Shown: positions 32,290 to 62,567 of the stretch, piece by piece | Layout of the letters: every line of letters begins with the position of its first letter | Numbering within the stretch: position 1 is the first letter of the stretch | Sequence record: MN709127.1 | Length of the DNA: 64,000 bases | Origin: Escherichia phage Ec_Makalu_002 | Strand: one strand, 5' to 3' | The notes under the pieces: generated by a model | What the model was told of the DNA's origin: nothing | Database searches by the model: none | Seen by the model: only the letters and a program-made list of their open reading frames with translations | Made by a program: the position numbers and the translations under genes

Positions 32290-32493
32290 TTAACCGTATA
32301 CGCGAAAGTATTCTACTGACCCGTCGCTATACTGTTTTACATTGAATGTATTCACACCATGATTATTTCTCATGATGACATATAAACTACGACGTTCATC
32401 GCTAAACGGCATAACTGGTGCTGGTTCAATGTCAACATTAAAACCACGTTTAGCAAGTGCGTCGCCTAATTTCTTGATTTTATCGGTAAACAT
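32290..32493 (-). CDS. hypothetical protein (67 aa)
   Basis: Track ORF tightly packed between cd and pseT. Confidence 0.5.
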   Translation of the reverse strand: MFTDKIKKLGDALAKRGFNVDIEPAPVMPFSDERRSLYVIMRNNHGVNTFNVKQYSDGSVEYFRVYG

Positions 32494-33371
32494 TAAAAGT
32501 CTCCGTAGTTAACCTGAAAACATTCTACACCGATTGTGCGGTACATGTCAACCACTTGGTCACGGTCATCCACTGCCAAAACAACATGATAACGTGGTGC
32601 AATTTCCGAGAAAAAGATCTCTTTCTTCACTTCATGATCTGGACGTCGATCATTAGTTTCACGTTGAAAGTGATCGCTAGGTTCAATACCCTGTTCACGC
32701 AACCATTGCAGAGTATCTTCTTCGCAAACATCCTCACGCCCTGAGCATGTAATGATACGATAACCATTATCACGATACAGTTTAAGCATTTCGATCACTT
32801 GCGGACGCGGTTTATCTTCTTTGACCTTTGTCCAGTCAAACGGATGACGACCGCCCTTATCCGCTAATGTTCCATCAATATCAAAGATCACTGCCTTTGG
32901 CAGCATGGTATTCGGTTTGTATACTTCTTGACCCATATATTCCTGCATCAGATAAAATTGGTTACGTAAATGAGATAGCGGAATTGCTTTCTCGCCGCGA
33001 TAGAAATTACGTTTCTTTAGTGTCTCAAACGGTTCATTGAACACTTGTTCAGTATACACCGCGTTAAATTCTTTTGCAAGTTCTTTGTAGAATACACGAT
33101 GTTTTTCTTTCAGGTTGGTATCAGAGATAATTATACTCAATCCGCGCGATAGAGTCTCGCGAGCAATCATTCTCTGAACAGACTCTACCAGCTTTTCCTT
33201 TTCCTTAGTATATTTGTATTTCAAAGGTGAGTCAACACCAAACAACATAAGACGAAGATCATCACGATTCACATTACGATAATTACTAAACCGTTTACAC
33301 GTTTCCATAGCCCATGTAGTTTTACCGGACCCAGAACAACCAACGGTTAAAATCACTTCACATTTCGGCAT
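32493..33371 (-). CDS. pseT: polynucleotide 5'-kinase / 3'-phosphatase
   Basis: P-loop GCSGSGKTT, HAD motif VIFDIDGTL, C-terminal GVECFQV; close match to T4 Pnk. Confidence 0.93.
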   Translation of the reverse strand: MPKCEVILTVGCSGSGKTTWAMETCKRFSNYRNVNRDDLRLMLFGVDSPLKYKYTKEKEKLVESVQRMIARETLSRGLSIIISDTNLKEKHRVFYKELAKEFNAVYTEQVFNEPFETLKKRNFYRGEKAIPLSHLRNQFYLMQEYMGQEVYKPNTMLPKAVIFDIDGTLADKGGRHPFDWTKVKEDKPRPQVIEMLKLYRDNGYRIITCSGREDVCEEDTLQWLREQGIEPSDHFQRETNDRRPDHEVKKEIFFSEIAPRYHVVLAVDDRDQVVDMYRTIGVECFQVNYGDF

Positions 33372-33823
33372 TATTTCTCCTTCGGTTTACACCGTTCCTC
33401 ATTGAGTTCTTTGCGATAATAACACATGATCAACTTACTTTCAAGTGTATATCTCTTAATATCAGCCAACCAGACTCTAAATTTTTGGGAGTCCTCCCAT
33501 GACATAGAAACTCTAGGCTTACCGTCTATTGTATCCACATTCAGGTCAATGTCAACTTTTTCTATTGGTGCTGGTAGTGGTGGATGTAATTTCGGTTCCT
33601 GTGAATAATGGTCCAGTGTACACGAAGAAAGCGCAAATACAATAGGCACAGCGAAGACATGGATTATGGCGGTCTGAAAATTCTTATGTGCTTTCTTAAA
33701 TATCCAGTGTATCACGAAAATTGAAAACACCATCAGGATAATAATGCTTGCACCTATCCACAGATAATCAACCAGATTAAAATTGCTTATCTGCTCTTGC
33801 GTAGGCAATATTTCTATGCTCAT
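33371..33823 (-). CDS. probable o-spanin (lipoprotein); true start likely internal
   Basis: Lipobox ALSSC followed by a Pro-rich region; position equals T4 pseT.2. Confidence 0.45.
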   Translation of the reverse strand: MSIEILPTQEQISNFNLVDYLWIGASIIILMVFSIFVIHWIFKKAHKNFQTAIIHVFAVPIVFALSSCTLDHYSQEPKLHPPLPAPIEKVDIDLNVDTIDGKPRVSMSWEDSQKFRVWLADIKRYTLESKLIMCYYRKELNEERCKPKEK

Positions 33824-34194
33824 TTAGTAGCCTCCTTTAATTCTTCGGTAAACTCCTTAAATGAGTCATTAAGCTGTTTCTCTACCAACTTGGGTTTTTG
33901 TGCTACTACATAGCCTCGTGTAGCGTCTTTCATTGCTTTGTTTTGTTCTTCTGCAAACTTAGTTCTTATTCCGTACATATCCTTTTGTAGTGAGTCTACG
34001 ACCTTCATCTTTTCATCTGTCTTTTTCTTATACTCTGTAAATTCCTGATTCAGTCGATCTACCTCCTTTTTATTTTCCCACCACATATTGCCACCTACCC
34101 CCAGCAACACAGATATGATAACAATGTATATCAGCTTTGACATATTACCCCCAACGACAAAAGGCGGGGAACTAGCCCCGCTTATTATTACCAA
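33820..34194 (-). CDS. probable i-spanin (N-terminal TM plus coiled coil)
   Basis: TM segment LIYIVIISVLLGV then charged helical region; position equals T4 pseT.3. Confidence 0.45.
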   Translation of the reverse strand: MVIISGASSPPFVVGGNMSKLIYIVIISVLLGVGGNMWWENKKEVDRLNQEFTEYKKKTDEKMKVVDSLQKDMYGIRTKFAEEQNKAMKDATRGYVVAQKPKLVEKQLNDSFKEFTEELKEATK

Positions 34195-44902: not shown

Positions 44903-45877
44903 TTACATCGCTAACAGAGAATCCAGGTCATCCAGATCAGAAGCGGAGGAAGTACCGCCACCCAGGTCCAGAGATGCCATCAGGTCATCAGCGGAAGAAT
45001 CTAACGCCGTGCTAGCTGCGTTAATACCAACTACAGTGCTAGCTGCGGTAGTACCAGCGTCGAATGCATTCATCTGTGCGTCAAAATCATCAAGCTGGCT
45101 GTTAATCGCTGCCGCAGCACTGGAAGCCGCAGCACCAGCTACCATAGAAACGCCCATAGTTTTCTTAAATTTGGTTTCCAGTTCATCGAACGGTTTAAAC
45201 TGGCTAGGCGCTACAATCTCACTCAGATCAACCATGTTTTCCATCAGATATTTCTGATATGCTTCGTCTTCAATTTTCGGAAGCTGTGATTGCTGCATGA
45301 AACGAGAATCATCATAGTTCTGGTGTTTATCAACCTTCTTAGCTTTCAGGAGGAAGTTAGCACCGGAGAACACACAAGTTACATCTACCGGAACTTCGCC
45401 CATGTCGGTATTCACGTTAACCATCGCAACGATCTTATCATAAATTTTCTGACCGAAGCGGAATTTAAATACCTTACCTTCGTTTTCTGGTGCTTGAGGA
45501 TCTTTCAGTACCAGAATGTTTGCGTAGTAAGACGCTTTACGCTTAATCAGTTGCCATTCGGTTTTATCGGTATTGTACAAATCTTTTTCGTTAATATATT
45601 TGCACACAGGGCAAGAATCAAAATCACCGTGGGTGCTGGAGCAGTTTTCCCAATACCATTTTCCATTAACTTTGAAGGAATGGTTTACCAGTTTCACAAT
45701 CGGCAGACCGTCTTCTGTCTTAGACGGCAGGAAGCGAATCAGGGCTTCACCGTTACCTGCTGCATCAGTCTTAATCTTCCACTCTTTCGGGTCTTCTTTG
45801 GAGAAACCGTTGCCACCTTTCAGTGCGGCCAGTTGAGCTTGCAGTTTGGAAGAATCTTGACGACGGAACATGTTCAT
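44903..45877 (-). CDS. 32: single-stranded DNA-binding protein gp32
   Basis: Strong match to T4 gp32 ([34 protein letters not shown]) with an acidic Ser/Ala-rich tail. Confidence 0.95.
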
Positions 45878-45937
45878 AATTATACCTCTTTATATATTAA
45901 CTATTGATTAATTTACGTTTTATACTATATCAGATAC

Positions 45938-46534
45938 TTAATTGCTTGTCAATATTTTATCAATTATATCTAACAGTTTTGGTTTTCTATTTTCAAATTC
46001 TAACATCTCTTCGGGAGAAATGTCAACTACTTCTGTTTTGTTGAAAAAGTTTGGGTCTATAGCATCAGCAACAAAGTTTCTCGCAAGTGCTGCCGCTTTC
46101 TCATGAACATATATTCCCAAATATATCAACTTCTTTCTTTCGACCTGAATATTGGCAACATATTTACCATCTCGTTTATAAAGACTAACGCCGATATATT
46201 CAGATGATCGACCTTTCTGTTTACCCATATTTCTTGAGTTTTGTTGCTCGTTCGCATCTCTCAAGTTTTCAATCCGATTATCTGTTATAATTCGGTTAAT
46301 ATGGTCAACGTATTTTGGCATGTATCCATGATGCATAAAGAAAATTATTCTATGCTCCTTATGATGTTTACCATCGATACACACCAATCTGTATCCATGA
46401 CTAGGATTAACTCCACCCGCTCTAGATCCGACTTTATGCTTTCTGTTTGTCGATATCTTGCGAATCAGCTTACCGTTATCATATTTAAAGAGTTCATGAC
46501 AACGGGCATACAATTCAGGATCATATGTTTTCAC
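45938..46534 (-). CDS. HNH homing-endonuclease-like protein with AP2-type DNA-binding domain
   Basis: His-Me finger motif YVDHINRIITDNRIENL, then EYIGVS...KLIYLGIY...AAALARNF. Confidence 0.65.
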   Translation of the reverse strand: MKTYDPELYARCHELFKYDNGKLIRKISTNRKHKVGSRAGGVNPSHGYRLVCIDGKHHKEHRIIFFMHHGYMPKYVDHINRIITDNRIENLRDANEQQNSRNMGKQKGRSSEYIGVSLYKRDGKYVANIQVERKKLIYLGIYVHEKAAALARNFVADAIDPNFFNKTEVVDISPEEMLEFENRKPKLLDIIDKILTSN

Positions 46535-47198
46535 CTTTTAACCTCGATATTTCTTTACACTCTTTAACTACTTTAACAAATAATGCTCTTGCTTTTGTGG
46601 CGTCAATAACAAGTAGTTTCTTGTACGCCTTCATTTTAACACTATAAGTTTGCCAAATCAAGTCTTTGGCTACCTTGTCGTGTTCGTCGATTATATTTAG
46701 AAAGCTATCTAACAACATAAACGACTCAAACGATATAATCCGATTTTGCAGTAGTTTAAAGATACCGCTAGTTTCGGTTGCGGGATTGTATGTAATTAGC
46801 TCTTTAAGAGTAACCCCGCGTTTCTCTGAGAAATATACAAGACTTTTAATGTCATCGTCAAATCGTGTTGCCGCATCGGTTATCTTTCCTATGTATTCCA
46901 TATAAAAGCCGTATGCGTCAACATCAGTGATTTCACCTACCCATGCATCGGTATTAGCTACCAGATTGCTTAGGAATAGGAAGTATAATTCTCTTAGATT
47001 GTACTTTTCCGCTAATTTCGCGAAATAATACTTATCTCTGCGTTTATTGAATGCGGCATCAGATAACCGCATCCTCCAATTGTATTTTACGCAATCATAA
47101 CGCCCGTTCATATGAGCTTTCATCATGCAATATAACATATACACAGATTTAGCATTAATTCGCATATCTGGATCTGGAGGAAGACGGTTTCTGATCAT
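46521..47198 (-). CDS. 59: helicase loader gp59
   Basis: 225 aa; aligns with T4 gp59 (GKSVY.LY.M...HMNG.YD..KYNW.MR.SDAA). Confidence 0.92.
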   Translation of the reverse strand: MIRNRLPPDPDMRINAKSVYMLYCMMKAHMNGRYDCVKYNWRMRLSDAAFNKRRDKYYFAKLAEKYNLRELYFLFLSNLVANTDAWVGEITDVDAYGFYMEYIGKITDAATRFDDDIKSLVYFSEKRGVTLKELITYNPATETSGIFKLLQNRIISFESFMLLDSFLNIIDEHDKVAKDLIWQTYSVKMKAYKKLLVIDATKARALFVKVVKECKEISRLKGENI

Positions 47199-47734: not shown

Positions 47735-48331
47735 TTAACCCTCTTTAGTCATTAATTGAAAACCACGTTCAGCTTTTGAGATTTCGCTAGGACTTAAATC
47801 GTCACCCACATATTCTAGCATCATTTCTCGGATAATGTCAAGTGCTTTTTCATCACCTGATTTTAACTCGAACTCAAGTTCATAGTGAGCCTCTCCCATT
47901 CTTTCGCCGACTTTGCAATAATAGAAAGTGTCTTTGCACATTTCCACTATAGCACCCTCAAGGTCAAGTGTCAATGACTTGCGGTATGTCATTACTTGCA
48001 ATAAAGGAACGATAAGGTCGGAGTTTACGCCTAGACTATCAACATAATGATAGAAATCATCCATTGTTGAAAAAGTGATTTCTTCTCGGTTGAATAGTCC
48101 AGATTCACTATCACCTATTTTGACCATGATCAATGATCTATTAACGTCAAGTCGAGCATAAATTCCTTTTCGACGCAGTGCATGATCTTCGGTATCATAA
48201 TAAAATTCGTGTTTTAGTGTGTTAGCATGATCTACGATATTGTACCCGTCATACATTGCTACCAACAAATCACAGATTGTTTCGACGCCAATTTGTGAGT
48301 GTGCATAGTATTTTAATTCAAGTTCTTTCAT
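47735..48331 (-). CDS. CYTH-like (triphosphate tunnel metalloenzyme) protein
   Basis: N-terminal ELELKY, central R-x-R (ALRRKGIYARLDVNR), C-terminal YELEFELK; 198 aa. Confidence 0.5.
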   Translation of the reverse strand: MKELELKYYAHSQIGVETICDLLVAMYDGYNIVDHANTLKHEFYYDTEDHALRRKGIYARLDVNRSLIMVKIGDSESGLFNREEITFSTMDDFYHYVDSLGVNSDLIVPLLQVMTYRKSLTLDLEGAIVEMCKDTFYYCKVGERMGEAHYELEFELKSGDEKALDIIREMMLEYVGDDLSPSEISKAERGFQLMTKEG

Positions 48332-49551: not shown

Positions 49552-52500
49552 ATGGCAGATTTTTCTCAACATTTCAAGGCCACATTTGGCTTTGACGCTG
49601 GTAATGAAAAGGTCGTCAATGTAGCATTGGCTGATAAAAACACATCAACGGATGCGGTCAACGTTGAGTTTTTCAATTACCATAATGGTATTACTCAGTA
49701 TGACACAACTCGCGGTTATGATCAATACGGAACTACAATCTATCAAAACCGTCCGTATTATGCAAAAGAAGATATCACAAAGCCAGCAGGTGATTTTGAC
49801 CCGACTAAATGGCAAGCACTGCGCACGGACCCACGTTGGGATTATATTGCAGCAACTTCCGGTGATACTCCTTTAAAGTCTGGTGATTATATCGCAGCAG
49901 ATGGTCAATTTGCAAACTTGACTTTCTCTATGCCAACTAAACCAGCAGAGGGAGACACTATAACAGTAAAAGATATCGGTGGCAAGTGTGGTGTTAACGA
50001 ATTATCGTTCTTGAGTTCAGGACATGAGTTTTACCATAACGGTAATGTGTATAACCGAAAATGGTATTGCACTACCCCGTATGCAATGAACTATTTCATC
50101 TTTGTTCGTAATCGTTGGCATGTTTATCAGACAGGAACAGAGCCACGCGGTGTGTACGCACAGCCAGCGATTGATGCTATTCAAATGCAGAATGGTGATC
50201 AGGTATTTCGTCGTAGTTCTTTGGGTAATATTACCTTAGTGCTTCCTAAGTTTGCCAACAATGGCGACATGATCCAGACTACAGACCTTGACGGATTAAC
50301 CGTAACCAACCACGTTACGGTTAAAGTTCATGAGCACGCAGAAGAACAATCAATTGGCACGTCCGGTCTAAAAGAGATTATCGGTAAGCGTAGCGGTCAT
50401 GGTGTATTCATCTTTGACAAGACGGAAAACTTATGGCGTTTGTGGGATGGTGATCAGTCTGTTCGTCTTAAACCGATCATCGATGACACTCGCTTGCAAC
50501 CTAATAGCTATGTTGCCGTATTTGGTGATCGTGATGTTACTCTGACGCTGCCGACCAATGTCGAGCCGGGTGATCGTATTCAAGTTTCTATGCAGTATAT
50601 GCACGGAAACCAGAATTGCCGTATTATCACCGCCACAGAGGATACAAAAATCCTCATGTCGAAAAACATGGTTCAGTTTCCGAAGCGTAGCGAGTACCCA
50701 TTCAACGGGACCGACACATGGAAGGAAGTGTCTGAATTGTCGTTCAATGCGGCTAGTGATTATGTACCTTATCTGGAGTTCTCTTATTCAGAAGGTGATG
50801 ATGGTAAGAAACATTGGCTGGTAGCACACTCTCATCCGATCGTCGAACGAGTAGACCCTACTCGTAAAGATCGTGTTGGTGTCATTGCACTGGCTACCCA
50901 GACTGAAACGAATAAAAACCATGAAGAGAATCCTAGCGACGAAGTTGCCGTAACACCAAAAATGCTGGCTAATAAAACAGCCAACGAAACTCGACGCGGT
51001 ATTGCTCGTATTGCTACTCAGGCGGAAACGCATCAAGATACTGGTTCCAGCTTCCTGGATGATGTTATCGTTACACCTAAAAAGTTAAATGACTGTGTTG
51101 CTACCGAAGCCCGTCGTGGTGTGATGGAAATTGCAACCCAGCACGAAACCAATGAAGGTTTAGACGATACACGCGCTATTACTCCTAAGAAATTAGAAGA
51201 ACGTCGCGCTTCCGAAGACCTCGCTGGTATTGCTGAAATTGTTCAGGTAGGCGGTCGTGCTGCCGCTCGACGTGGTGAAGCTGGTACAGGGATCTATAAC
51301 ATCAATGACCATGCTAAAATTGTTACACCACAAAACATCAACGAGGTCAAGGCGACCGAAACTTCCCGTGGTGTTGGCTATCTGGCAACTGACGCGGAAG
51401 TGCAAGGGGCTACAGAATCAACACCGCAAGATGCTTTACTAATCACGACTCGCACGCTAACGAAACGTACTGCTACCGAATCGCGCACTGGTATCGCTGA
51501 AATTGCAACTCAGGAAGAAACAAACTTAGGTCAAAGTGATAACCATATCATCACGCCTAAAAAGCTGCATACTCGCCGTGCGACGGAAACTCTACACGGT
51601 TTAGCAGAAATTGCAACTCAGCCGGAATTTGACGCAGGTCTTGACGATGCTCGCATTTCTACCCCATTGAAGATTAAAACCTTCTTTGAGAATGCACAGC
51701 GTTTGAAAGTAGATCCGACTCAGGGGCTTAACCTTACTGGTGATTTGTGGCAAGGTATCATGATCAGCGGTCTGGACGCAACCGAAGACACAAAAGGTGT
51801 CGCTAAAGTTGCTACTACTCAGCTTACTGACGCTGGTCAAGATGATACTACAATCATCACGCCTAAAAAGCTGCAAGGCAAAAAGGCCACCGAAGGTAAA
51901 GAAGGTATTATCCGAGTTGGTACTCAAGCCGAAACCGTGGCTGGTACACTGGCTAATGTAGCAATTTCTCCGAAGAACTTCAAATATGTTGTTCAGACAG
52001 AGGATACATGGAAAGCAACCGAAGCTCGTCGTGGTTTCTTGAAAGTTGCTACTCAGGAAAACTGTTTTGTTGGTGACAATCTGCAAGGTTCTACTCAAGA
52101 ACTAGGAAACTACCAGCATGACGGAATTGCTGTTACTCCGAAAGGATTAAACTACGCACTTGCTAATTTCTTGCCTAAGATGGCAACCGCTCAGAATAGT
52201 TTGAAATTGGGTAACGTAGAGGCCGCTAAATGGGCGCGTAGAGACATTGACCAGACCATAGAGAGCAATTACACGTTTAATAAAAACGTTAACGTGAAGG
52301 GCGATTTAGAGTGCTTAAAATCAGGTTCCTTTGAAACTCTGTATGTGACTAAGAACTCTACTGATGATCCGAGTAATGGTCATCTGGTGTTGGGTGAGCG
52401 TGGAGTTGACGGTCACACCGGAATTACTCTGCATGGCACAACCGCATCGGAAGGCATGAAAAACTCCTGGTCTATTATCGTTGGTGGTACTGGAACGGCG

Positions 52501-53292
52501 CAAGCAGTTAATAGTGGCGCTATCGCTTTCGGTCAAATCAATGATGGTGGAGTCGTCGAGCATTACGCCTTTGCTATGGAACACAATGGCGACGCGACAG
52601 CATATAGAGACTTTATTGCAGGTCGTAACCTGTATGCGAAACAAGGCGGTTTATACATTGTTGACCAGTCTAATCCGGCAATGACTCGTTCCCCAGATGG
52701 TATGCTGAATATCGGTCACGGTGGAAGTGTTAACATCAAGGCAGGTTCTCAAACGTTAACTACAGAGATCGCCGGACAGAAATATCAGATCGTACACGCA
52801 GGAAACGCCGACGAAGTTCTTAACCGTCGGTTTGTTAAGAATGCTGGCGATACAATGGTCGGTAAGCTGACTATGGATAATGCGCCTATTGTTTCTGTTA
52901 AACATGAAGCTAGCGCGGCAACCGCTCCGGCAATTGGTAACATCGGTTTCTGGAATATGCGAGTTACTACCCAGAACATCAAAGAAACTTATCCAGAGAA
53001 GAAAAACGGTACTCTGATGCAATGGGGTACTGACGCGGACGGGCTTACCCAGCTTTGGTCCCCTGATGGTACTCATAAACATTATATCCGTTCCGGTACT
53101 GGTGGTCAATGGACCGCATGGGGTGAAATTTACACCAAACAGAATAAGCCTACCGCTCAGGAAATCGGGGCGGTAGTTGCAGAAGGTGGTTTAATGAACT
53201 CTATGACGGTTCGTGATTGGATTAAAGTTGGTAATGTTAAAATCATCGCCAATAATCTGACTCGTACCGTAGACTTTATCTGGGAAGACTAA
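49552..53292 (+). CDS. 34: long tail fiber proximal subunit gp34
   Basis: 1246 aa; T4 gp34-like N-terminus and repeated TPKKL..ATE..G.AEIATQ segments. Confidence 0.92.
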   Translation: MADFSQHFKATFGFDAGNEKVVNVALADKNTSTDAVNVEFFNYHNGITQYDTTRGYDQYGTTIYQNRPYYAKEDITKPAGDFDPTKWQALRTDPRWDYIAATSGDTPLKSGDYIAADGQFANLTFSMPTKPAEGDTITVKDIGGKCGVNELSFLSSGHEFYHNGNVYNRKWYCTTPYAMNYFIFVRNRWHVYQTGTEPRGVYAQPAIDAIQMQNGDQVFRRSSLGNITLVLPKFANNGDMIQTTDLDGLTVTNHVTVKVHEHAEEQSIGTSGLKEIIGKRSGHGVFIFDKTENLWRLWDGDQSVRLKPIIDDTRLQPNSYVAVFGDRDVTLTLPTNVEPGDRIQVSMQYMHGNQNCRIITATEDTKILMSKNMVQFPKRSEYPFNGTDTWKEVSELSFNAASDYVPYLEFSYSEGDDGKKHWLVAHSHPIVERVDPTRKDRVGVIALATQTETNKNHEENPSDEVAVTPKMLANKTANETRRGIARIATQAETHQDTGSSFLDDVIVTPKKLNDCVATEARRGVMEIATQHETNEGLDDTRAITPKKLEERRASEDLAGIAEIVQVGGRAAARRGEAGTGIYNINDHAKIVTPQNINEVKATETSRGVGYLATDAEVQGATESTPQDALLITTRTLTKRTATESRTGIAEIATQEETNLGQSDNHIITPKKLHTRRATETLHGLAEIATQPEFDAGLDDARISTPLKIKTFFENAQRLKVDPTQGLNLTGDLWQGIMISGLDATEDTKGVAKVATTQLTDAGQDDTTIITPKKLQGKKATEGKEGIIRVGTQAETVAGTLANVAISPKNFKYVVQTEDTWKATEARRGFLKVATQENCFVGDNLQGSTQELGNYQHDGIAVTPKGLNYALANFLPKMATAQNSLKLGNVEAAKWARRDIDQTIESNYTFNKNVNVKGDLECLKSGSFETLYVTKNSTDDPSNGHLVLGERGVDGHTGITLHGTTASEGMKNSWSIIVGGTGTAQAVNSGAIAFGQINDGGVVEHYAFAMEHNGDATAYRDFIAGRNLYAKQGGLYIVDQSNPAMTRSPDGMLNIGHGGSVNIKAGSQTLTTEIAGQKYQIVHAGNADEVLNRRFVKNAGDTMVGKLTMDNAPIVSVKHEASAATAPAIGNIGFWNMRVTTQNIKETYPEKKNGTLMQWGTDADGLTQLWSPDGTHKHYIRSGTGGQWTAWGEIYTKQNKPTAQEIGAVVAEGGLMNSMTVRDWIKVGNVKIIANNLTRTVDFIWED

Positions 53293-53325
53293 TTAAAGGG
53301 GGCGAAAGCCCCCTATGGGGTTATT

Positions 53326-54465
53326 ATGACACAAGATATAGAATTACGCAACACTGGAATTAGGTTTGCGCATTTCGATGAGGACTCCGCGACATTTACC
53401 AGCATTTCAGAAAACAACTCTGTGATGTATAAGCTGGAAGTGCGCGGATCTAATGCGGATTCTACCAAACCAGCAAGGATTAGATTTAATGGAGTGGAGA
53501 TCGTTGGCACTGGCTATGAAAATGGCCTAAATTTTAAAGTTCTTACTCCAACTGGACAACTACACGAAGAAAAGGTATTCTATGGTCGCGGTGCTGTTTT
53601 GGCAATGCGTGATTATCTTTCTTTGCTGAAAGGCGACTATATCATTGCGATGGCAACGCATGGAGAATTGTTCGCAGATCCGATAAGTGATGTTGTATTT
53701 TCTAAGATGGGATCTGTATCATTCCCGAATCACATTTTGTTACAGCAAATGCCTCGTGTATCATATGCAGCAATTTATTCTACTAAAATGGGTAAAATTG
53801 TTTGTGAGGGTATGCAAGCGACCCACGGGGAAGGACAAGATTCGTCTATACAAATTGAGAAGGTTTATGATACTATAGATGATCTTGCGATCACAGGAAC
53901 ACCGCAGAGATTTTTAGATTATCCGGTTGAGTATGTTAGCGAAGATGCCGAACATTTCGAGCTAATACAATGGCCTCACGATGAGATCAGCGCCCCACTT
54001 GAGGATTTTAACATAAAGGCAGGTGACAAACTATCAATATCCTTTGAATTGTTCCGTGATAGTGCCGCAGCCGCAGCCAACGTAACAGCGCGTTTCTATC
54101 ACAACTACTTCACCGATGGACAATATAAAACTGGTGTTCGATACAATGCCAGCAAAAAAGATCAATGGGAAAAGTTTGAAGCCGTCTATACCGTACCGGA
54201 AGGAGTTGATAGTGTAGTAACTGGTTGTATCAGATATCCAACCAACTCAAATGAAGGTATTGTTAAAATTAGAAACATACTAATAACGCCGATCAGTGGA
54301 GTCGTCAAAACTACTGGTCCTACTTCATTTGGTGTTAATGGTGTTAGAACAACTCATATTCAGGATAACGGTGATTTTACTAACCCTGTAATGAGTCTTC
54401 TTAAGCTGCCTAGAGACAATAAACATATCACATCCAACAACTTTAAAGAGTTCGATGTTGATTAA
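53326..54465 (+). CDS. 35: long tail fiber hinge protein gp35
   Basis: 379 aa; synteny. Confidence 0.8.
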   Translation: MTQDIELRNTGIRFAHFDEDSATFTSISENNSVMYKLEVRGSNADSTKPARIRFNGVEIVGTGYENGLNFKVLTPTGQLHEEKVFYGRGAVLAMRDYLSLLKGDYIIAMATHGELFADPISDVVFSKMGSVSFPNHILLQQMPRVSYAAIYSTKMGKIVCEGMQATHGEGQDSSIQIEKVYDTIDDLAITGTPQRFLDYPVEYVSEDAEHFELIQWPHDEISAPLEDFNIKAGDKLSISFELFRDSAAAAANVTARFYHNYFTDGQYKTGVRYNASKKDQWEKFEAVYTVPEGVDSVVTGCIRYPTNSNEGIVKIRNILITPISGVVKTTGPTSFGVNGVRTTHIQDNGDFTNPVMSLLKLPRDNKHITSNNFKEFDVD

Positions 54466-54476
54466 CATTTTTTACA

Positions 54477-54506
54477 AGCCGATCCATGTGGTCGGCTTTA
54501 TTTTTA
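54477..54506 (+). terminator. rho-independent terminator after gene 35
   Basis: Hairpin agccgatccatgtggtcggct followed by TTATTTTTAT. Confidence 0.6.
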
Positions 54507-54626
54507 TACAGTTGGTTAAAATGTAACCAAAACGAAGAAAGATCTTTAGAATAATAGAAAATTTGTTTCGGTTAAAAATTAGTCAGTGCCTACGGCACGT
54601 CGCGAAGCGATATTTTGTTAACATTC

Positions 54627-54634
54627 TATAAATA
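54627..54634 (+). promoter_or_regulatory. late promoter TATAAATA for gene 36
   Basis: TATAAATA about 33 nt upstream of the ATG at 54668. Confidence 0.6.
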
Positions 54635-54667
54635 CTCGGAACTATAACTAATTTTTGAGGTTACTTT

Positions 54668-56158
54668 ATGGCAGATTTGAAATATGGATCTACTGTAGGT
54701 GGATCTCCCATTTGGACGCAAGGAAACTTGACGATCCAGCCAGCGGGGGACCAGCTTTTCTACAAAGGTCATAAAATATATACCGCTTTTGATAGACCTT
54801 CGGCTACCGATTTTGATGCTGTTAGTGCATCCGAAGGTGGCACATTTCAAAAGCAAGTTCATTTCGAGGAAGGTTTAAGCGTAGGTAGCGCATCGGCTGG
54901 AGAAACCAAAAAGAATGGTATCTTTAAAGGTCAGAGTGACGCTGCTAATTTTGACGGTGTAAGCTGGGGTTTTCATTCATGGAAGTCAATCGGCTTTGTT
55001 AATGCCCGTGATGGCGTTATCATGGCTTATATTGACACCACAACGGGCGAATTTAAGTCTAAAGGGACTATCGAAGGGACAACCATTAAAGACACAGGTC
55101 AACGCGTCTATAGCCCTGTTAATAAACCAACGAATAATGATTTAGATTTGGTGTCTCGTCGCGGTGATACCCTCACAGGAACATATAATTTAAACACTGT
55201 CACTGTTAAACTATCGGTTGATTCGAAATTAATTGCAAGGGAACGTGATTTAATTAATTTTGATGCGACTAAGATCTATTATGGTAACGTTCTTGATACG
55301 TTGGTATTCCGAAGTAAAGATGAGCCTACCATTTTTGTTAATGGCAAAGAAGGTCGTTTTTATCACACCAACAATAAACCAACTAAAGCCGATGTGGGAC
55401 TAGGCAATGTCACCAATGATGCACAGGTTAAACGTGCTGGTGATATTATGGAAGGTAACTTGCAAGCGCCTAGAATGTTGGCGACAAACGATCCTGGTGG
55501 TCCGAATGAATTGGTTCGTTTGAGCTACTTTGAGAGAAAATCAATGGTAGCAAATCCAACCATCATAGGAAACGTTGATTGGAACACTCTTATTAATCGC
55601 GGTATCTATCGTGTGGAAAATGCGGGATCAGGTACTAATAAACCGTCTGATAGCTATTATAACGGCGTTTTGATGGTATACCGCCCAGAAGATGCGGTCG
55701 GTACTCGTCGAATTGTTCAGGTGTATTATCCTGAATCTATTGACCATCCGATGTGCTGGCGTTCTTGTTCTAATGAATCATGGACTGCATGGAACTATGT
55801 AGATCACCGTAAATTAGCCGATATTCGCTATGTTAACGTAACTGGCGATACCATGACAGGACCGTTAACTGTTCCGGCTGCAAACGGTGTTAGAACGGCT
55901 AGAGGTGCATATAATGGTGATAACTATTATGCCGGGTTAAATAGTGCTGATGGTACTGCTATGATTCACCGCATTAGTGATATTAAAGGGACCGAAAAGC
56001 TGGGGATCACCCACGACTCAAAGGTCGTGTTTTTCCGTTCTAGAAACAATACTCAAACCGTGGATCGCTATCAGCTTTATCATGAAGGTAATAAACCTAC
56101 TCCGGCTGATGTTGGTGCGGTTCCACTTAATGCGGTGATTGATTTTGGTACTTTCTAA
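54668..56158 (+). CDS. 36: long tail fiber distal connector gp36
   Basis: N-terminus MADLKYGSTVGGSPIWTQGN matches T4 gp36; longer than I recall for T4. Confidence 0.8.
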   Translation: MADLKYGSTVGGSPIWTQGNLTIQPAGDQLFYKGHKIYTAFDRPSATDFDAVSASEGGTFQKQVHFEEGLSVGSASAGETKKNGIFKGQSDAANFDGVSWGFHSWKSIGFVNARDGVIMAYIDTTTGEFKSKGTIEGTTIKDTGQRVYSPVNKPTNNDLDLVSRRGDTLTGTYNLNTVTVKLSVDSKLIARERDLINFDATKIYYGNVLDTLVFRSKDEPTIFVNGKEGRFYHTNNKPTKADVGLGNVTNDAQVKRAGDIMEGNLQAPRMLATNDPGGPNELVRLSYFERKSMVANPTIIGNVDWNTLINRGIYRVENAGSGTNKPSDSYYNGVLMVYRPEDAVGTRRIVQVYYPESIDHPMCWRSCSNESWTAWNYVDHRKLADIRYVNVTGDTMTGPLTVPAANGVRTARGAYNGDNYYAGLNSADGTAMIHRISDIKGTEKLGITHDSKVVFFRSRNNTQTVDRYQLYHEGNKPTPADVGAVPLNAVIDFGTF

Positions 56159-56162
56159 TTTT

Positions 56163-56188
56163 AGCGGGGATTATCTCCCCGCTTTTCT
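56163..56188 (+). terminator. hairpin / attenuator between 36 and 37
   Basis: Hairpin agcggggattatctccccgct followed by TTTCT. Confidence 0.45.
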
Positions 56189-56228
56189 AAATAATGTTAT
56201 TCTAATAACCGTTTAAGGATTTTATAAA

Positions 56229-58997
56229 ATGGCAGATTTAAGCAGAATCCAATTTAAACGTACTAGCACTAAAGGCCGTCGACCTGATGCTGGTACGATG
56301 AATCCGGGGGAATTGGCAATCAACCTTGCGGATCAATATCTTCTTACTAAAAATGATTCCGGCGCTATTATCAATTTAAGTTGTCCTCCGGTTTATGACC
56401 GTGATGTTACAATGGCGGGTAAGGTTAAAGGAAATAATTATATTTTAAGTAAAACCGCCAATTATCTGGAAGACCAGACAGCGAGAGATCTTAACTACTT
56501 TGGTGCTTTCCGTACCAATAGTCTAGATGGACTCATGGATCTAACCCTTAACGTTCCTCACTCTTCCGGTAAAGCGCATGGTCGAGGATTTACTTTCCGT
56601 TATGGGACTGGCGGATCTCGTGTTGAAACCTATGGTTTTGATGTTCAGGGACAAAAAGCATTTAGTTATAAAATGTATCATGAAGGGGATAAACCGACTC
56701 CCTCAGAATTGAACGTTTATAGCAAACAAGAAGTTGACCGTATGTTTGTTAAAACCGTTAAACTTGCTACAGTTCCTGTTGATATCGTTGACGGTTATTT
56801 TAAATTAGCAACTGCATTGATTCCGCAAAACGGTCGTAGTGTATTTTTCCGTATTCATGGTGGTAACGGATATAACGTTACTGCATACGATCAAGTTGAT
56901 ATTGTAGAAATTGTTATTCGCAGTGGAAATAATCGTCCTAAAGGTGTTAACGTTATTGCATACCGCCGAAATACAAACAAAGCATTTGATGTTTTGGCTG
57001 TTAATACTTCTGGTGATAACTATGATATCTACGTGAAATATCAGCGTTACACTGATAACGTTATTGTTGAATTTGGTAAAAGTGTTGATGTTGATCTGGT
57101 AGTCCATGACGTTCCAGACTTTGTTGTTGATCGTCCTGTTGGCGATAATGTTATTGGCGGTCGCGCGGTAACTCTTTTTAACACCGAAAACAAACGAGGT
57201 GTGTTGAGTTTTGACGATAACACACAAAATAGTTATGATATTGTTCACTTGAGTAATGATAAAGGTACTGGACGGAAATATATTCGTAAATTCCGTAGTA
57301 ACTATAATGAAATGATCTGGCATGAGACTGTTCAAGGTTCTACTTATCGACTCGCCACGGGTAGTACAGATGCTCAGGAAATTATAACTATTGAATCTAG
57401 TAGCTCAATTGCTGGAACTCATAAAGGTAATATTATTTCTGGTCGTATGCTGTTAAATGGCGGATCTAATGCCATTACACTACGCCGACCTGCTGGTCAA
57501 TCTAATCATATTGCGTTTCAAGATAATCGTACTGGAGATATTACCCGTCAAGGTTGGCTGGGCTACGCAAACGCCGATACTGACGTTTTTGAATGGTATA
57601 GTGATGTAGGTGGCAGTTCTATTCGTCAACATATCGACGGACAGATCGAATTTCAGACAGGTAACATGAAGCGAGTCTATACCAACGGTCAATTCATTTC
57701 TTTATATGCTGATGGCTTCCGTACTGTATATGGTAACTATGGTTCATGGTGGCGAAATGACGGCAGCAACGTTTATCTGATGAGCACAAAATCAGGCGAC
57801 ACTATGGGTCCGTGGAATACCTTTAGGCCGTTCATCTATAGCCTAGCCAATGGAAACGTTACACTAGGTGGTAGCGACGCTGGCAACCATTTAATGCGTC
57901 TCAACAATGAAAATCGTCAAGTAGAAATAAATGCAACAACACATTTAGGGTCTCGATTATATTGGGAAGGTAGCGAAGGTTCTGCATCTAGATTTTTTAT
58001 TAAGAATTGGGGTGATGGAACTTCTCGCGCTCAGGTGTGGGAACTTGCAGACGAAACAAGCTATCATCTATATTCTCAGCGTGATTCTAACGGTTCGATT
58101 CAATTCCGAGTTGCTGGTAGTTTAGAAACGGGTGGTCGTGCTCAGATAAATGGTGATTTGGTGGTTACTAATGTTTTGCGTACCAATAACCAAATTCAGA
58201 TTTATCGCGATAACAACAAAGAAATCTGGTTTAAGGATGCTGATGGTACTAACCGTGGTGTTATCTGGGGTGGCGCTGACGGTAAAATGAGACTGCGCAA
58301 TTATTCTAGCGGAGAGTATGACCATGTGTTTGAAGCTGGTATGATTCGCCTTGAGCGTGGTTATGCTAATGGACAAGGTGCTGGCTTGATTCGTGGTGAG
58401 GTTCAAGGTGGAGCGTGGTCCGACTGGAGAACTCGTGCTGCTGGTTTATTAGTTGACTGCCCTAATGCTCAAACTTCCGCATATAACGTATGGAAAGCGA
58501 CCAAATGGGGATTAGACCACATCGCGGCAATGGGCGTTCATATTCCTAGCGGTGTTGTTGGTAACTCTATTGCGCGTTTGCATGTTGGTGGCACTAACTT
58601 TGATTTTAGCGCTACTGGTGACTTTACCGCAGGTCGTAACGGTTCGTTTAACGATGTGTACATTCGTTCTGATGCTCGCCTGAAAATCAATAAGGAAGAG
58701 TATAAAGAGAATGCCACCGATAAAGTTAATCGCTTGACTGTGTACACCTACGATAAGGTTAAGTCTTTGACGGACCGCACTGTTATCGCTCATGAAGTTG
58801 GTATTATTGCTCAGGATCTTGAGAAAGAATTGCCGGAAGCAGTAACAACTTCTAAGGTCGGCGATCCTGATAAGCCAGAAGAGATCTTAACAATTTCTAA
58901 CTCTGCTGTCAACGCTCTTTTAATTAAGGCGTTTCAGGAAATGAGCGAAGAATTGAAAGCCGTTAAAGCTGAACTAGCGGAACTTAAAAAGAATTAA
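56229..58997 (+). CDS. 37: long tail fiber distal subunit gp37 with C-terminal intramolecular chaperone domain
   Basis: N-terminus IQFKRTSTKGRRPDAG..GELAINL matches T4 gp37; C-terminus SDARLKINKEEYKENATDKV... resembles the self-cleaving chaperone of endosialidase-type fibers. Confidence 0.85.
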   Translation: MADLSRIQFKRTSTKGRRPDAGTMNPGELAINLADQYLLTKNDSGAIINLSCPPVYDRDVTMAGKVKGNNYILSKTANYLEDQTARDLNYFGAFRTNSLDGLMDLTLNVPHSSGKAHGRGFTFRYGTGGSRVETYGFDVQGQKAFSYKMYHEGDKPTPSELNVYSKQEVDRMFVKTVKLATVPVDIVDGYFKLATALIPQNGRSVFFRIHGGNGYNVTAYDQVDIVEIVIRSGNNRPKGVNVIAYRRNTNKAFDVLAVNTSGDNYDIYVKYQRYTDNVIVEFGKSVDVDLVVHDVPDFVVDRPVGDNVIGGRAVTLFNTENKRGVLSFDDNTQNSYDIVHLSNDKGTGRKYIRKFRSNYNEMIWHETVQGSTYRLATGSTDAQEIITIESSSSIAGTHKGNIISGRMLLNGGSNAITLRRPAGQSNHIAFQDNRTGDITRQGWLGYANADTDVFEWYSDVGGSSIRQHIDGQIEFQTGNMKRVYTNGQFISLYADGFRTVYGNYGSWWRNDGSNVYLMSTKSGDTMGPWNTFRPFIYSLANGNVTLGGSDAGNHLMRLNNENRQVEINATTHLGSRLYWEGSEGSASRFFIKNWGDGTSRAQVWELADETSYHLYSQRDSNGSIQFRVAGSLETGGRAQINGDLVVTNVLRTNNQIQIYRDNNKEIWFKDADGTNRGVIWGGADGKMRLRNYSSGEYDHVFEAGMIRLERGYANGQGAGLIRGEVQGGAWSDWRTRAAGLLVDCPNAQTSAYNVWKATKWGLDHIAAMGVHIPSGVVGNSIARLHVGGTNFDFSATGDFTAGRNGSFNDVYIRSDARLKINKEEYKENATDKVNRLTVYTYDKVKSLTDRTVIAHEVGIIAQDLEKELPEAVTTSKVGDPDKPEEILTISNSAVNALLIKAFQEMSEELKAVKAELAELKKN

Positions 58998-59037
58998 GGA
59001 AACTCCCAGGGAAGGGAACTACTAAGGAGAAACGGCT

Positions 59038-59277
59038 ATGGTCTATAATATCGTCATTGGTGCTTTGTCTAATTTCGGAATGAAATTATTGTCAAAGTTA
59101 ATTAGTGAAAAGATGCTCACTAAAATTTTCTTCTATTGCGCTCGTCGTCTTGCGGCTTATACCAATACGCCAATTGATGATCGTTTTGTGGAAGAACTTT
59201 ATAAGGAGTTTAATAAAGATCAGTCAGAAGATAGTAACGAGCAAGATAAACCTAGTGATAGTCAACTACCTAAATAA
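59038..59277 (+). CDS. hypothetical protein (79 aa) in the gp38 position
   Basis: Hydrophobic N-terminus, acidic C-terminus; no resemblance to T4 gp38 noticed. Confidence 0.45.
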   Translation: MVYNIVIGALSNFGMKLLSKLISEKMLTKIFFYCARRLAAYTNTPIDDRFVEELYKEFNKDQSEDSNEQDKPSDSQLPK

Positions 59278-59310
59278 GAGTACACTGTCATAGTTATCTT
59301 AGGGCATTAT

Positions 59311-59967
59311 ATGCAAGTTTCTGAAAAAGGGAAAGACTTTGCTATCTCAAATGTCCTGCGCGCTATTTTCACAACTAAAAGCACGGAGTTGCTCGTACTT
59401 CGTGTTTTTGCTGCCGTCGTGTTGTCCATATTAGCATTTGTCGTTTATAGTAAAAACGAGTTATTCGCGCTTTATAAAGAGACTCGTTATGAGACTTATG
59501 CTCACATTCTCCAGGTAGAGAAAGACCGCAATTTTGATAATGCAGCACAGGAGCAGTTACAGATAGTTCATGTATCGGCTGATGCCGATTTTTCTGCTGT
59601 TTTTAGTTTTCGTCCGAAAAACCTAAACTATTTTGTTGATTTGGTGGCATATGAAGGAAAGCTACCGCATACAATCGATGAAAAAAATTTAGGCGGATTC
59701 CCTATCAATAAAACGAGTGAAGAATATCGTAGGCATCTTTTAGGTAAATCATATTTTACCGATAAAGATTTCCAGTATATTCCATCAAGAGAAAAGAAAT
59801 TAGAGAATATCGATATAGGTTTCATGTATTCTTGTCCTATATTCAATCTCGATAATGTCTATTCTGGTAGTATCGCCATTTCATGGAAGAATAAACCGGA
59901 TATTGACATTGAGAATTTAGATACTCTTTGCAATCAATCTGCCAGAATCCTCGGAAGGATTAGATAA
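59311..59967 (+). CDS. t: holin
   Basis: 218 aa; strong match to T4 holin T (QLQIVHVSADADFSAVFSFRPKNLNYFVDLVAYEGKLP, NQSARILGR). Confidence 0.93.
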   Translation: MQVSEKGKDFAISNVLRAIFTTKSTELLVLRVFAAVVLSILAFVVYSKNELFALYKETRYETYAHILQVEKDRNFDNAAQEQLQIVHVSADADFSAVFSFRPKNLNYFVDLVAYEGKLPHTIDEKNLGGFPINKTSEEYRRHLLGKSYFTDKDFQYIPSREKKLENIDIGFMYSCPIFNLDNVYSGSIAISWKNKPDIDIENLDTLCNQSARILGRIR

Positions 59968-61808: not shown

Positions 61809-62567
61809 TTACTTGCAAACGTATTGATCTACATCAATTGCGCCACCGAATGTAGGATGACGTTTTTCAAATCGAATAGTTCCGTCGTTTGGTTCGAAAA
61901 CGGAGTATTCATATAGATCTTTCTTGCCAACATTCTTATAAAACCCGCCTTTAGTCATAACGGTTTCTTGTACGTTTGCTTTGTGTACATTGTATTCATC
62001 AATGTACACAAAATCAACCATCTTCCCATTTTTAATAGTTACTTTAAGATCCCCTGGCTGGTTTCCATATTTTGCATACAGTGGAGATTCTTTAATTTTG
62101 GTGGAAATTCCATCTTTCATACTCCACTCATAACGAACGGTGCATTGATAGGTAAAAGTTTCGACCTTCGGTTCTTCCACCACTTTTGCTTCCTGTTTCG
62201 GTTGTTCTTCTTCAACCTTCGCAGAAGTCTCTGAATCGCTTTCTGACGCGGTTTCTTCTTTAGGTAATACATTCATCAAGTTTTGGATTTGAGCGTTATA
62301 TACAGCCTCCAGTGGCTGAATCTGCCCGATATTGATCATTGTATCACGAACAGTTTTATTCCAGTTGCGTTGCTCTTGTTTCAGAGACGGATCAATCTTA
62401 ACAGCCTTAACATATACTTCATGAAGTTTAGAATCAAGTGCGGAGATTGACTCGTTAGCACAAATAAACTTCTCTGATTTGGTAGTAGCCTTAGTGCAAT
62501 CAAAGGACGCAGCATTAGCACCGATGGCAGTAGCAGAAAGAAAGATAGCAGCGATAATGTTTTTCAT
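61809..62567 (-). CDS. secreted protein with DUF1311 / LprI-like N-terminal domain
   Basis: Signal peptide MKNIIAAIFLSATAIGANA; FDCTKATTKSEKFICANESISALDSKLHEVY...EQRNWNKTVRD fits the LprI-like pattern. Confidence 0.5.
   Translation of the reverse strand: MKNIIAAIFLSATAIGANAASFDCTKATTKSEKFICANESISALDSKLHEVYVKAVKIDPSLKQEQRNWNKTVRDTMINIGQIQPLEAVYNAQIQNLMNVLPKEETASESDSETSAKVEEEQPKQEAKVVEEPKVETFTYQCTVRYEWSMKDGISTKIKESPLYAKYGNQPGDLKVTIKNGKMVDFVYIDEYNVHKANVQETVMTKGGFYKNVGKKDLYEYSVFEPNDGTIRFEKRHPTFGGAIDVDQYVCK

What the first reader, a model, noticed from the sequence alone, without database searches (positions are those of the whole stretch)
56229..59277. gp37 with a self-cleaving chaperone-type C-terminus and no gp38 homolog
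The last about 110 residues of gp37 (from SDARLKINKEEYKENATD...) resemble the intramolecular chaperone domain of endosialidase or T5-type fibers, which cleaves itself off after trimer folding. That would make a gp38-type adhesin or chaperone unnecessary. The gp38 position instead holds an unrelated 79-aa ORF with a hydrophobic N-terminus. The receptor-binding tip is therefore likely the region just upstream of the cleavage site.
Basis: partly seen in the sequence, partly recalled or inferred. Interest (0 to 1): 0.45.

Follow-up and report, generated by a model that had tools for sequence, protein, structure and literature searches.

The report
T2-type tail fibre, adhesin gene elsewhere
This is the ordinary distal long tail fibre of an RB49-like (Krischvirus) coliphage: the fibre does carry a self-cleaving chaperone at its end, but in this lineage the cut end is then capped by a gp38 adhesin encoded far away in the genome, and the small gene in the "gp38 slot" is a known lysis-factor homologue.

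Summary
The sequence observation holds. gp37 (56229-58997, 922 aa) ends in a 109-residue Peptidase_S74 intramolecular chaperone (S814-N922). It has the Ser814/Lys819 dyad and a predicted chaperone fold. The 79-aa ORF in the gp38 slot is unrelated to gp38.

The main inference does not hold. The window is a Krischvirus; its first 25 kb are 99.6% identical to Ec_Makalu_001. In RB49 and 28 of the 30 listed relatives, a T2/S16-type gp38 adhesin gene sits at a distant locus. For RB49 that is about 106 kb from g37, outside this window. Trojet 2011 already described this displacement.

The gp37 junction DVYIR|SDARLK matches S16 (DLNVS|SDRRIK) and Tequatrovirus fibres that have an adjacent gp38. In S16, autocleavage there exposes the gp38 docking face. 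RB49 host-range mutations map to gp38 (Efimov 2022). So the chaperone replaces a T4-type folding chaperone, not the adhesin. The residues just upstream of the cut are most likely a conserved docking surface, not the receptor-binding tip.

ORF79 belongs to Pfam PF26925 (PM2 gp l, the P18 lysis factor) and lies directly upstream of holin t. Krupovic and Bamford reported the RB49 homologue in 2007.

Everything here is already known, so interest is low.

The parts
56229..58997 (+). g37, distal long tail fibre subunit precursor (922 aa)
   Evidence: ORF. phrog_1699 'long tail fiber protein distal subunit', E 2.9e-177. 91% DNA identity to the g37-ORF79 region of JEP8, JK32 and GEC-3S.
57555..57839 (+). 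Gp34_trimer-like domain inside gp37 (aa 443-537)
   Evidence: Pfam PF21446, E 2.1e-23. Sequence matches to T4 gp34 (4UXE, 5NXF) and the Mu tail fibre S (5YVQ).
57669..58628 (+). Variable distal module of gp37 (aa ~481-800), swapped between Krischvirus lineages
   Evidence: aa 1-480 are ~100% identical to Ec_Makalu_001. aa 551-700 are 29% identical to Makalu_001 and 27% to RB49, but 88% to JEP8. aa 701-813 are 65%, 63% and 93% identical respectively.
58632..58667 (+). Invariant last strand before the cut, GRNGSFNDVYIR (aa 802-813); inferred gp38 docking base
   Evidence: Invariant except S806 in four Krischvirus gp37. N808-R813 are at least 90% conserved in 24 homologues. VYIR is shared with Tequatrovirus Bas45, which has an adjacent gp38. 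DVYIR was named as the docking strand in the fPS phages (PMC7917993).
58668..58994 (+). Intramolecular chaperone / Peptidase_S74 domain (S814-N922, 109 aa). Catalytic Ser814 codon at 58668-58670, Lys819 codon at 58683-58685. Predicted autocleavage between R813 and S814.
   Evidence: PF13884, E 9.4e-12. Aligns to S16 gp37 in 6F45_A, E 8.7e-5. K819 is invariant and S814 at least 90% conserved. The AlphaFold model (pLDDT 86-93 over most of the domain) hits the MyRF ICA domain 7DC3, the endoNF chaperone 3GW6 and the GA-1 chaperone 3GUD. 99% identical among Krischviruses.
59038..59277 (+). ORF79, homologue of the PM2 gp l (P18) lysis factor (Pfam PF26925, phrog_402); not fibre-related
   Evidence: phrog_402, E 5.2e-20. 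All 69 homologues carry PF26925 'Phage_PM2_Gpl'. hhalign against PM2 gp l: probability 90.9%, E 1.1e-6. PMC1950889 states that RB49 and Felix O1 encode P18 homologues.
59311..59967 (+). Holin t
   Evidence: Pfam Phage_holin_T, E 4.5e-61; phrog_860, E 5.2e-88.

Best explanation
This is a T2/S16-type distal long tail fibre of a Krischvirus (RB49-like coliphage).

gp37 is made as a 922-aa precursor. Its C-terminal 109-residue intramolecular chaperone (Peptidase_S74) drives trimerisation of the beta-structured tip. It then removes itself by Ser814/Lys819-catalysed autoproteolysis between R813 and S814. The flat trimeric end formed by the invariant ...NDVYIR strands is then capped by one copy of a gp38 adhesin. 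gp38 has an N-terminal attachment domain and a polyglycine sandwich with hypervariable loops, and it binds the receptor (OmpA, Tsx, OmpF or O-antigen, depending on the variant).

In Krischviruses g38 has been moved to a distant early-region locus near rI, outside this window. The vacated slot between g37 and holin t holds a homologue of the PM2 P18 accessory lysis factor.

Shown here: domain identity, dyad, predicted fold, junction conservation, presence of g38 in relatives, and the ORF79 family. Inferred: actual cleavage, gp38 docking, and the presence of g38 in this particular phage.
For: - Chaperone: PF13884 at aa 814-873, E 9.4e-12, above cutoff.
- Fold: the model's best PDB matches are intramolecular chaperone domains, 7DC3 (E 9e-5), 3GW6 and 3GUD.
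- Dyad: S814 and K819 are conserved in 24 homologues.
- Solved relative: the best sequence match is S16 gp37 from the gp37-gp38 complex 6F45. DVYIRSDARLK aligns to DLNVSSDRRIK, and S16 autocleaves at S^S there to expose the gp38 docking surface (PMC7917993).
- Tequatrovirus Bas45, with an adjacent gp38 about 90% identical to RB49 gp38, has the same NVYIR|SDIRLK junction.
- Identity of the window: Krischvirus, 99.6% identical to Ec_Makalu_001 over 25 kb.
- g38 in relatives: RB49 g38 is at 45367-46143 and g37 at 151717. It aligns end to end with S16 gp38 (6F45_D, E 1.5e-50). 28 of the 30 relatives listed appear among the top gp38 hits, including Makalu_001, JEP8, JK32 and GEC-3S.
- Modularity: the gp38 attachment domain is nearly invariant although the gp37 distal modules differ.
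- Literature: Trojet 2011 reports the displaced g38 and the small ORF in its place. Efimov 2022 reports the RB49 self-cleaving chaperone, gp38 capping, and host-range mutations E230K/Y231S in gp38. The 2025 npj Viruses paper shows that Krischvirus gp38 determines the receptor.
Against: - The rest of this phage's genome is not in the window, so g38 cannot be seen directly.
- No proteomic evidence of cleavage in a Krischvirus was found in the searched literature.
- The pre-cleavage 113 residues are only 63-65% identical to RB49 and Makalu_001, so a receptor contact by gp37 itself is not excluded.
- The structure model is a monomer with mean pLDDT 75.8, and confidence is low right at the junction.
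Confidence: 0.85

Rival explanations
1. One reading: a T5 pb1 / endosialidase-type fibre. The chaperone is the only folding aid, no separate adhesin exists, and the receptor-binding domain is the gp37 segment immediately upstream of the cleavage site.
For: The chaperone is genuine. No g38 lies in the slot or in the window. The region aa 551-813 is the most variable part of gp37 among relatives.
Against: Every checked Krischvirus relative has a displaced S16-type g38. The last 12 residues before the cut are invariant except S806 and are shared with gp38-bearing Tequatroviruses, which fits a docking surface better than a specificity determinant. RB49 host-range mutations map to gp38.
Confidence: 0.04
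2. A bivalent fibre: gp38 caps the tip as above, and the swappable distal gp37 module (aa ~481-800) also carries a lateral binding site of its own, for example for O-antigen or LPS.
For: The module is exchanged independently of gp38. JEP8 and Makalu_001 gp38 are 97% identical, while their gp37 aa 551-700 (inferred from each one's identity to the window) are only about 29% identical. Efimov 2022 found it puzzling that a small gp38 recognises several O-antigens.
Against: No domain with a known carbohydrate-binding signature was detected in aa 551-813. The RB49 mutants that gained growth on strain F17 mapped to gp38 only. Shaft modules of fibres commonly shuffle without any binding role.
Confidence: 0.12
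3. The S74 domain is a non-cleaving relic that remains on the mature fibre.
For: Cleavage was not observed here.
Against: The Ser and Lys of the dyad and the surrounding motif are strictly conserved, and the domain is 99% identical across Krischviruses. A retained chaperone would occlude the gp38 docking face.
Confidence: 0.03

Closest known systems
Salmonella phage S16 / coliphage T2-type distal fibre (gp37 with C-terminal intramolecular chaperone plus gp38 adhesin; PDB 6F45)
   Same: gp37 ends in an S74 chaperone with an S-D-x-R-[LI]-K site. The lineage has an S16-type gp38 with an attachment domain and polyglycine motifs (E 1.5e-50 to 6F45_D). The same DVYIR|SD.RLK junction occurs in T2-like Tequatroviruses.
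   Different: g38 is not adjacent to g37 but about 106 kb away (RB49 coordinates), in the early region near rI. The gp37 shaft upstream of the last ~12 residues is unrelated to S16 in sequence.
RB49 / Phi1 / JSE / GEC-3S (genus Krischvirus) g37-ORF-t locus
   Same: Identical gene order g34-g35-g36-g37-79-aa ORF-t. The chaperone is 99% identical and ORF79 is 97-100% identical.
   Different: This window's gp37 is a mosaic: the N-terminal 480 aa are Makalu_001-like and aa ~481-800 are JEP8-like. That is ordinary lineage variation.
Endosialidase (K1F endoNF) and T5 L-shaped fibre pb1 intramolecular chaperones (Peptidase_S74)
   Same: Same Pfam family, same C-terminal position, same Ser/Lys dyad spacing, same predicted fold (3GW6 and 3GUD hits).
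   Different: In those proteins the receptor-binding or enzymatic domain is in the same chain and no adhesin caps the cut end. Here the cut end is a docking site for gp38.
T4 gp37/gp38
   Same: Same fibre position and same locus order up to g37 and t.
   Different: From established knowledge: T4 gp37 has no S74 chaperone and binds the receptor itself, and T4 gp38 is a non-structural folding chaperone. This phage is not of that type.
Corticovirus PM2 lysis factor P18 (gp l; Pfam PF26925)
   Same: ORF79 is a family member. It sits next to a holin, as gp l sits next to the holin-like gp k (P17) in PM2.
   Different: ORF79 has a 20-aa acidic C-terminal extension. The phage also encodes a two-component spanin pair, so any outer-membrane role would be accessory. 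Function in a T4-like phage is untested.

Membership tests
Peptidase_S74 / intramolecular chaperone domain of phage fibres and spikes | Sequence match to PF13884 above the gathering threshold | tested here: met
   45.5 bits against a cutoff of 22, E 9.4e-12, aa 814-873 covering profile positions 1-58 of 58.
Peptidase_S74 / intramolecular chaperone domain of phage fibres and spikes | Catalytic Ser-Lys dyad, with Ser at the scissile bond and Lys five residues downstream | tested here: met
   S814 and K819. K is invariant and S at least 90% conserved in 24 homologues. They align with the S16 SDRRIK site. The spacing equals endoNF S911/K916 and T5 S1264/K1269 (from memory of the literature, not tested here).
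Peptidase_S74 / intramolecular chaperone domain of phage fibres and spikes | Located at the extreme C-terminus of a trimeric fibre or spike protein | tested here: met
   The domain is the last 109 of 922 residues of a distal tail fibre protein.
Peptidase_S74 / intramolecular chaperone domain of phage fibres and spikes | Chaperone fold (beta hairpins plus a long C-terminal helix forming a trimeric coiled coil) | tested here: met
   The model has strands followed by a 31-residue terminal helix, with pLDDT 86-93 over most of the domain. The top Foldseek PDB hits are 7DC3, 3GW6 and 3GUD, all intramolecular chaperone domains. The model is a monomer only.
Peptidase_S74 / intramolecular chaperone domain of phage fibres and spikes | Autoproteolytic release after trimerisation | not testable with these tools
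   Needs virion mass spectrometry or SDS-PAGE, and S814A/K819A mutants.
T2/S16-type gp37-gp38 adhesin-tipped long tail fibre | gp37 chaperone junction homologous to that of gp38-bearing phages | tested here: met
   DVYIR|SDARLK compared with S16 DLNVS|SDRRIK, fPS DVYIR|SDGRLK and Bas45 NVYIR|SDIRLK.
T2/S16-type gp37-gp38 adhesin-tipped long tail fibre | The genome encodes a gp38 adhesin (attachment domain plus glycine-rich motifs) | tested here: inconclusive
   Absent from the 64-kb window. Present in RB49, Makalu_001 (99.6% relative of the window), JEP8, JK32, GEC-3S and others at a locus that lies outside the window.
T2/S16-type gp37-gp38 adhesin-tipped long tail fibre | g38 immediately downstream of g37 | tested here: not met
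   The slot holds ORF79. This is the known Krischvirus rearrangement (Trojet 2011). It concerns gene order, not the protein complex.
T2/S16-type gp37-gp38 adhesin-tipped long tail fibre | Host range determined by gp38 | not testable with these tools
   Reported for RB49 (E230K/Y231S in gp38, PMC9569957) and for Krischvirus isolates (PMC12032242).
   Not met in any checked relative. It cannot be checked for this phage beyond the window.
PM2 gp l / P18 lysis factor family (PF26925) | Sequence membership | tested here: met
   PF26925 is precomputed on all 69 homologues, including those 91% identical to ORF79. hhalign to PM2 gp l: 90.9% probability, E 1.1e-6. The family is missing from the local Pfam copy.
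PM2 gp l / P18 lysis factor family (PF26925) | Association with lysis genes | tested here: met
   Adjacent to holin t here. Directly after Phage_lysozyme genes in L005, L012, L014/L015 and L016. Before a putative holin in Ounavirinae. Next to the holin-like gp k in PM2. Exceptions: GAP52 and LAh_8, where it sits in the structural module.
PM2 gp l / P18 lysis factor family (PF26925) | Role in outer-membrane disruption at lysis | not testable with these tools
   Shown only for PM2 (Krupovic 2007, as cited in PMC6356626 and PMC9502842).

The most novel reading that the evidence does not exclude
The distal gp37 module (aa ~481-800) is exchanged between Krischvirus lineages independently of gp38. 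It could carry its own lateral receptor-binding site, for example for O-antigen. The fibre would then be bivalent, which might explain how RB49-like phages use several O-antigens alongside an outer-membrane-protein receptor.
Probability: 0.1. Interest if true: 0.4.

Novelty: already known. Interest (0 to 1): 0.1.

Why it matters
It matters mainly for annotation. Seeing an S74 chaperone and an empty gp38 slot should not lead to calling the fibre adhesin-free. In Krischviruses the host-range determinant (g38) lies about 100 kb from the fibre operon, so receptor prediction or fibre engineering based on the g34-g37 locus alone would miss it. The 79-aa 'hypothetical protein' annotated in dozens of RB49-like and Felix O1-like genomes can be labelled as a PM2 P18-family putative lysis factor.

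Tried and rejected
- A Pfam scan of ten 195-292-aa ORFs across the window for a hidden GP38 domain found none. The two unassigned ORFs (7069-7794 and 22473-23189, both minus strand) are not glycine-rich or adhesin-like.
- I tested whether ORF79 is a fibre-associated factor linked to chaperone-bearing fibres. This was rejected. The upstream neighbours of its homologues in other phages lack S74: a Mijalis fibre with gp37_trimer and Gp10_C, lysozymes, an Sf6 needle knob and an Ig-domain protein.
- ORF79 as a transmembrane holin is not supported by hydropathy.
- The search for related loci with the ORF79 alignment failed because no stretch was conserved enough.
- The local Pfam and NCBIfam libraries gave nothing for ORF79. 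The family name came only from the precomputed annotations.
- Krupovic 2007 (PMID 17555443) is not held. The mapping gp l = P18 rests on gene order, the order of genes in the PMC9502842 figure legend, and the statement in PMC1950889 that RB49 and Felix O1 encode P18 homologues.
- No T4 late promoter (TATAAATA) lies between g36 and t. The nearest is at 54627, upstream of g36.
- Some fetched loci were not visible in the Python sandbox, so alignments were made with the alignment tool instead.
Full report
**What is at the coordinates**

The + strand from 49552 to 59967 carries the T4-type long tail fibre operon followed by the holin:
- g34, 49552-53292
- g35, 53326-54465
- g36, 54668-56158
- g37, 56229-58997 (922 aa)
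- a 79-aa ORF, 59038-59277
- holin t, 59311-59967

gp37 matches distal-fibre PHROGs (phrog_1699, E 2.9e-177). T4-type late promoter motifs (TATAAATA) lie upstream of g34 (49516) and g36 (54627), but none lies between g37 and t. ORF79 has a strong Shine-Dalgarno sequence.

**The chaperone observation is correct**
- SDARLK begins at S814, with K819. S814 to N922 is 109 residues.
- Pfam places Peptidase_S74 (PF13884, 'chaperone of endosialidase') on aa 814-873. It covers the full profile at E 9.4e-12 and 45.5 bits, against a cutoff of 22.
- In an alignment of 24 database homologues, K819 is invariant and NDVYIRSD.RLK is at least 90% conserved.
- An AlphaFold2 model of aa 737-922 has mean pLDDT 75.8, and 86-93 across most of the chaperone. 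It shows paired strands and a 31-residue terminal helix.
- The model's best PDB matches are all intramolecular chaperone domains: the MyRF ICA domain 7DC3 (E 9e-5), the endoNF chaperone 3GW6 and the GA-1 appendage chaperone 3GUD.

**Which phage this is**

The finding region is about 91% identical to JEP8, JK32 and GEC-3S and matches RB49, Phi1 and JSE. Window 1-25000 is 99.6% identical to Ec_Makalu_001. The window therefore comes from a Krischvirus (RB49-like, family Straboviridae).

**Why 'no gp38' does not hold for the lineage**
- The window itself has no g38: tblastn with RB49 gp38 gives a best E of 0.32, and Pfam scans of mid-size ORFs found none.
- RB49 RefSeq annotates RB49p079 (45367-46143, 258 aa) as 'g38; similar to T2 and RB69 gp38 adhesin'. 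That is about 106 kb from g37 at 151717, and so outside the stretch that corresponds to this window.
- The RB49 protein has the polyglycine motifs and aligns end to end with S16 gp38 in PDB 6F45 (E 1.5e-50).
- tblastn finds gp38 at 81-100% identity in Krischvirus genomes. This includes 28 of the 30 relatives listed, among them Ec_Makalu_001 (45079-45858, near rI), JEP8, JK32 and GEC-3S.
- Trojet et al. [quoted passage not shown]

**Chaperone and adhesin coexist in this fibre type**
- The best solved-structure sequence match of the gp37 C-terminus is S16 gp37 from the gp37-gp38 complex (6F45_A, E 8.7e-5). DVYIRSDARLK aligns to DLNVSSDRRIK.
- Salem et al. 2021 summarise that in S16 the last 113 residues autocleave at DLNVS^SDRRIKK, which exposes the gp38 docking surface. 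They also note that T2-like fPS phages have DVYIR^SDGRLKI. That is essentially the junction in this window.
- Tequatrovirus Bas45 (PaulHMueller) has g38 adjacent to g37, and its gp38 is about 90% identical to RB49 gp38. Its gp37 has NVYIR|SDIRLK.
- Efimov et al. 2022 state explicitly that RB49 gp37 carries a self-cleaving chaperone, after which gp38 attaches. Their RB49 host-range mutants carried E230K/Y231S in gp38.
- A 2025 study shows that Krischvirus gp38 variants determine use of Tsx, OmpA or OmpF.

The chaperone therefore substitutes for a T4-type folding chaperone, not for the adhesin.

**Variation along gp37**

Identity of this gp37 to three relatives, by region:

| gp37 region (aa) | Makalu_001 | RB49 | JEP8 |
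|---|---|---|---|
| 1-330 | 100% | 77% | 92% |
| 551-700 | 29% | 27% | 88% |
| 701-813 | 65% | 63% | 93% |
| 814-922 (chaperone) | 99% | 99% | 99% |

- This gp37 is ~100% identical to Makalu_001 up to about aa 480. From about aa 481 to 800 it follows JEP8, so it is a mosaic.
- The last 12 residues before the cut (GRNGSFNDVYIR) are invariant except for S806.
- JEP8 and Makalu_001 gp38 are 97% identical, and the attachment domain is nearly invariant across Krischviruses. The same adhesin therefore docks on fibres with different distal modules.
- This fits a docking surface formed by the conserved terminal strand. It argues against that segment being the specificity determinant. It leaves open, at low probability, a second binding role for the variable module.

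**The 79-aa ORF**
- It is unrelated to gp38 and is 97-100% conserved in Krischviruses. Its homologues occur in Felix O1-like phages, Vibrio and Erwinia phages and others.
- Its N-terminus is only weakly hydrophobic (best 19-residue Kyte-Doolittle mean 1.31).
- All 69 database homologues carry Pfam PF26925 'Phage_PM2_Gpl'. This family is absent from the local Pfam copy.
- A profile of the family aligns to PM2 gp l with 90.9% probability (E 1.1e-6).
- PM2 Orf k and Orf l end the late operon after P5 and P6. They correspond to the lysis factors P17 (holin-like) and P18 (needed for outer-membrane disruption).
- Krupovic and Bamford 2007 state that P18 homologues are encoded by Felix O1 and RB49.
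- Homologues sit directly after lysozyme genes in four unrelated contexts and before putative holins in Ounavirinae. Their upstream neighbours lack S74 domains.
- The window also encodes a spanin pair next to pseT (phrog_739 and phrog_812). A P18-like role here would therefore be accessory.

**Verdict**

The mechanistic inference (an adhesin-free fibre with the receptor-binding domain upstream of the cut) is contradicted by the lineage's displaced g38 and by published genetics. All elements are described in the literature, so the finding is already known and of low interest.

What remains unverified is that this phage's own genome carries g38, which is outside the window, and that cleavage has been shown directly in a Krischvirus.

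Noticed in passing
window 59038-59277 (+): The 'hypothetical' 79-aa ORF in the g38 slot belongs to Pfam PF26925 (PM2 gp l, the P18 lysis factor) and sits directly upstream of holin t. Its homologues follow lysozyme genes in Vibrio and Shewanella phages and in metagenomic contigs. The link to RB49 and Felix O1 was published in 2007, but genome records still call it hypothetical.
   Followed up: yes
window 33371-34194 (-): A two-component spanin pair lies next to pseT: a 107-aa protein with a transmembrane segment and coiled coil (phrog_739), and a 150-aa protein with a lipobox-like LSSC (phrog_812). The o-spanin-like ORF has an unusually long N-terminal extension (about 50 aa, with a second hydrophobic stretch) before the matched region.
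   Followed up: partly
window 57669-58628 (+), gp37 aa ~481-800: gp37 is a recombinant. The N-terminal 480 aa are ~100% identical to Ec_Makalu_001, while aa ~481-800 follow JEP8 (88-100%) and are only 27-65% identical to Makalu_001 and RB49. The first breakpoint falls inside the Gp34_trimer-like domain. JEP8 and Makalu_001 gp38 are 97% identical, so the module swaps independently of the adhesin.
   Followed up: partly
protein P0015 (303 aa, E. coli-associated contig of 25.7 kb): One database protein combines a gp38-like N-terminus and glycine-rich motifs (PF05268, PF21721) with a gp37-type tip and S74 chaperone (PF13884) in a single ORF. It is either an assembly or recombination chimera, or a genuine adhesin-chaperone fusion.
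   Followed up: no
window 61809-62567 (-): A 252-aa protein has a signal peptide and an N-terminal LprI (lysozyme inhibitor) domain (Pfam E 1e-5), followed by an acidic linker and an unassigned C-terminal domain. It is conserved as a hypothetical protein in RB49 (RB49p262).
   Followed up: no
literature versus genomes (PMC12032242; RB49 L002 45367-48690; Makalu_001 L009): A 2025 paper says that gp38 lies 'near the phage holin' in most Krischvirus isolates. In RB49 and Makalu_001, g38 lies about 2-2.5 kb from rI (the lysis inhibition gene), not near t. The statement may reflect annotation of rI or a different genome start point.
   Followed up: no
window 18069-18893 (-) and 32493-33371 (-): Ordinary T4-type accessory genes were seen while scanning for g38: an Alt-like ADP-ribosyltransferase, polynucleotide kinase/phosphatase PseT, gp59 (46521-47198), a CYTH-domain protein (47735-48331), and two paralogous T4_baseplate proteins (10758-11387 on the minus strand, 11458-12228 on the plus strand).
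   Followed up: no
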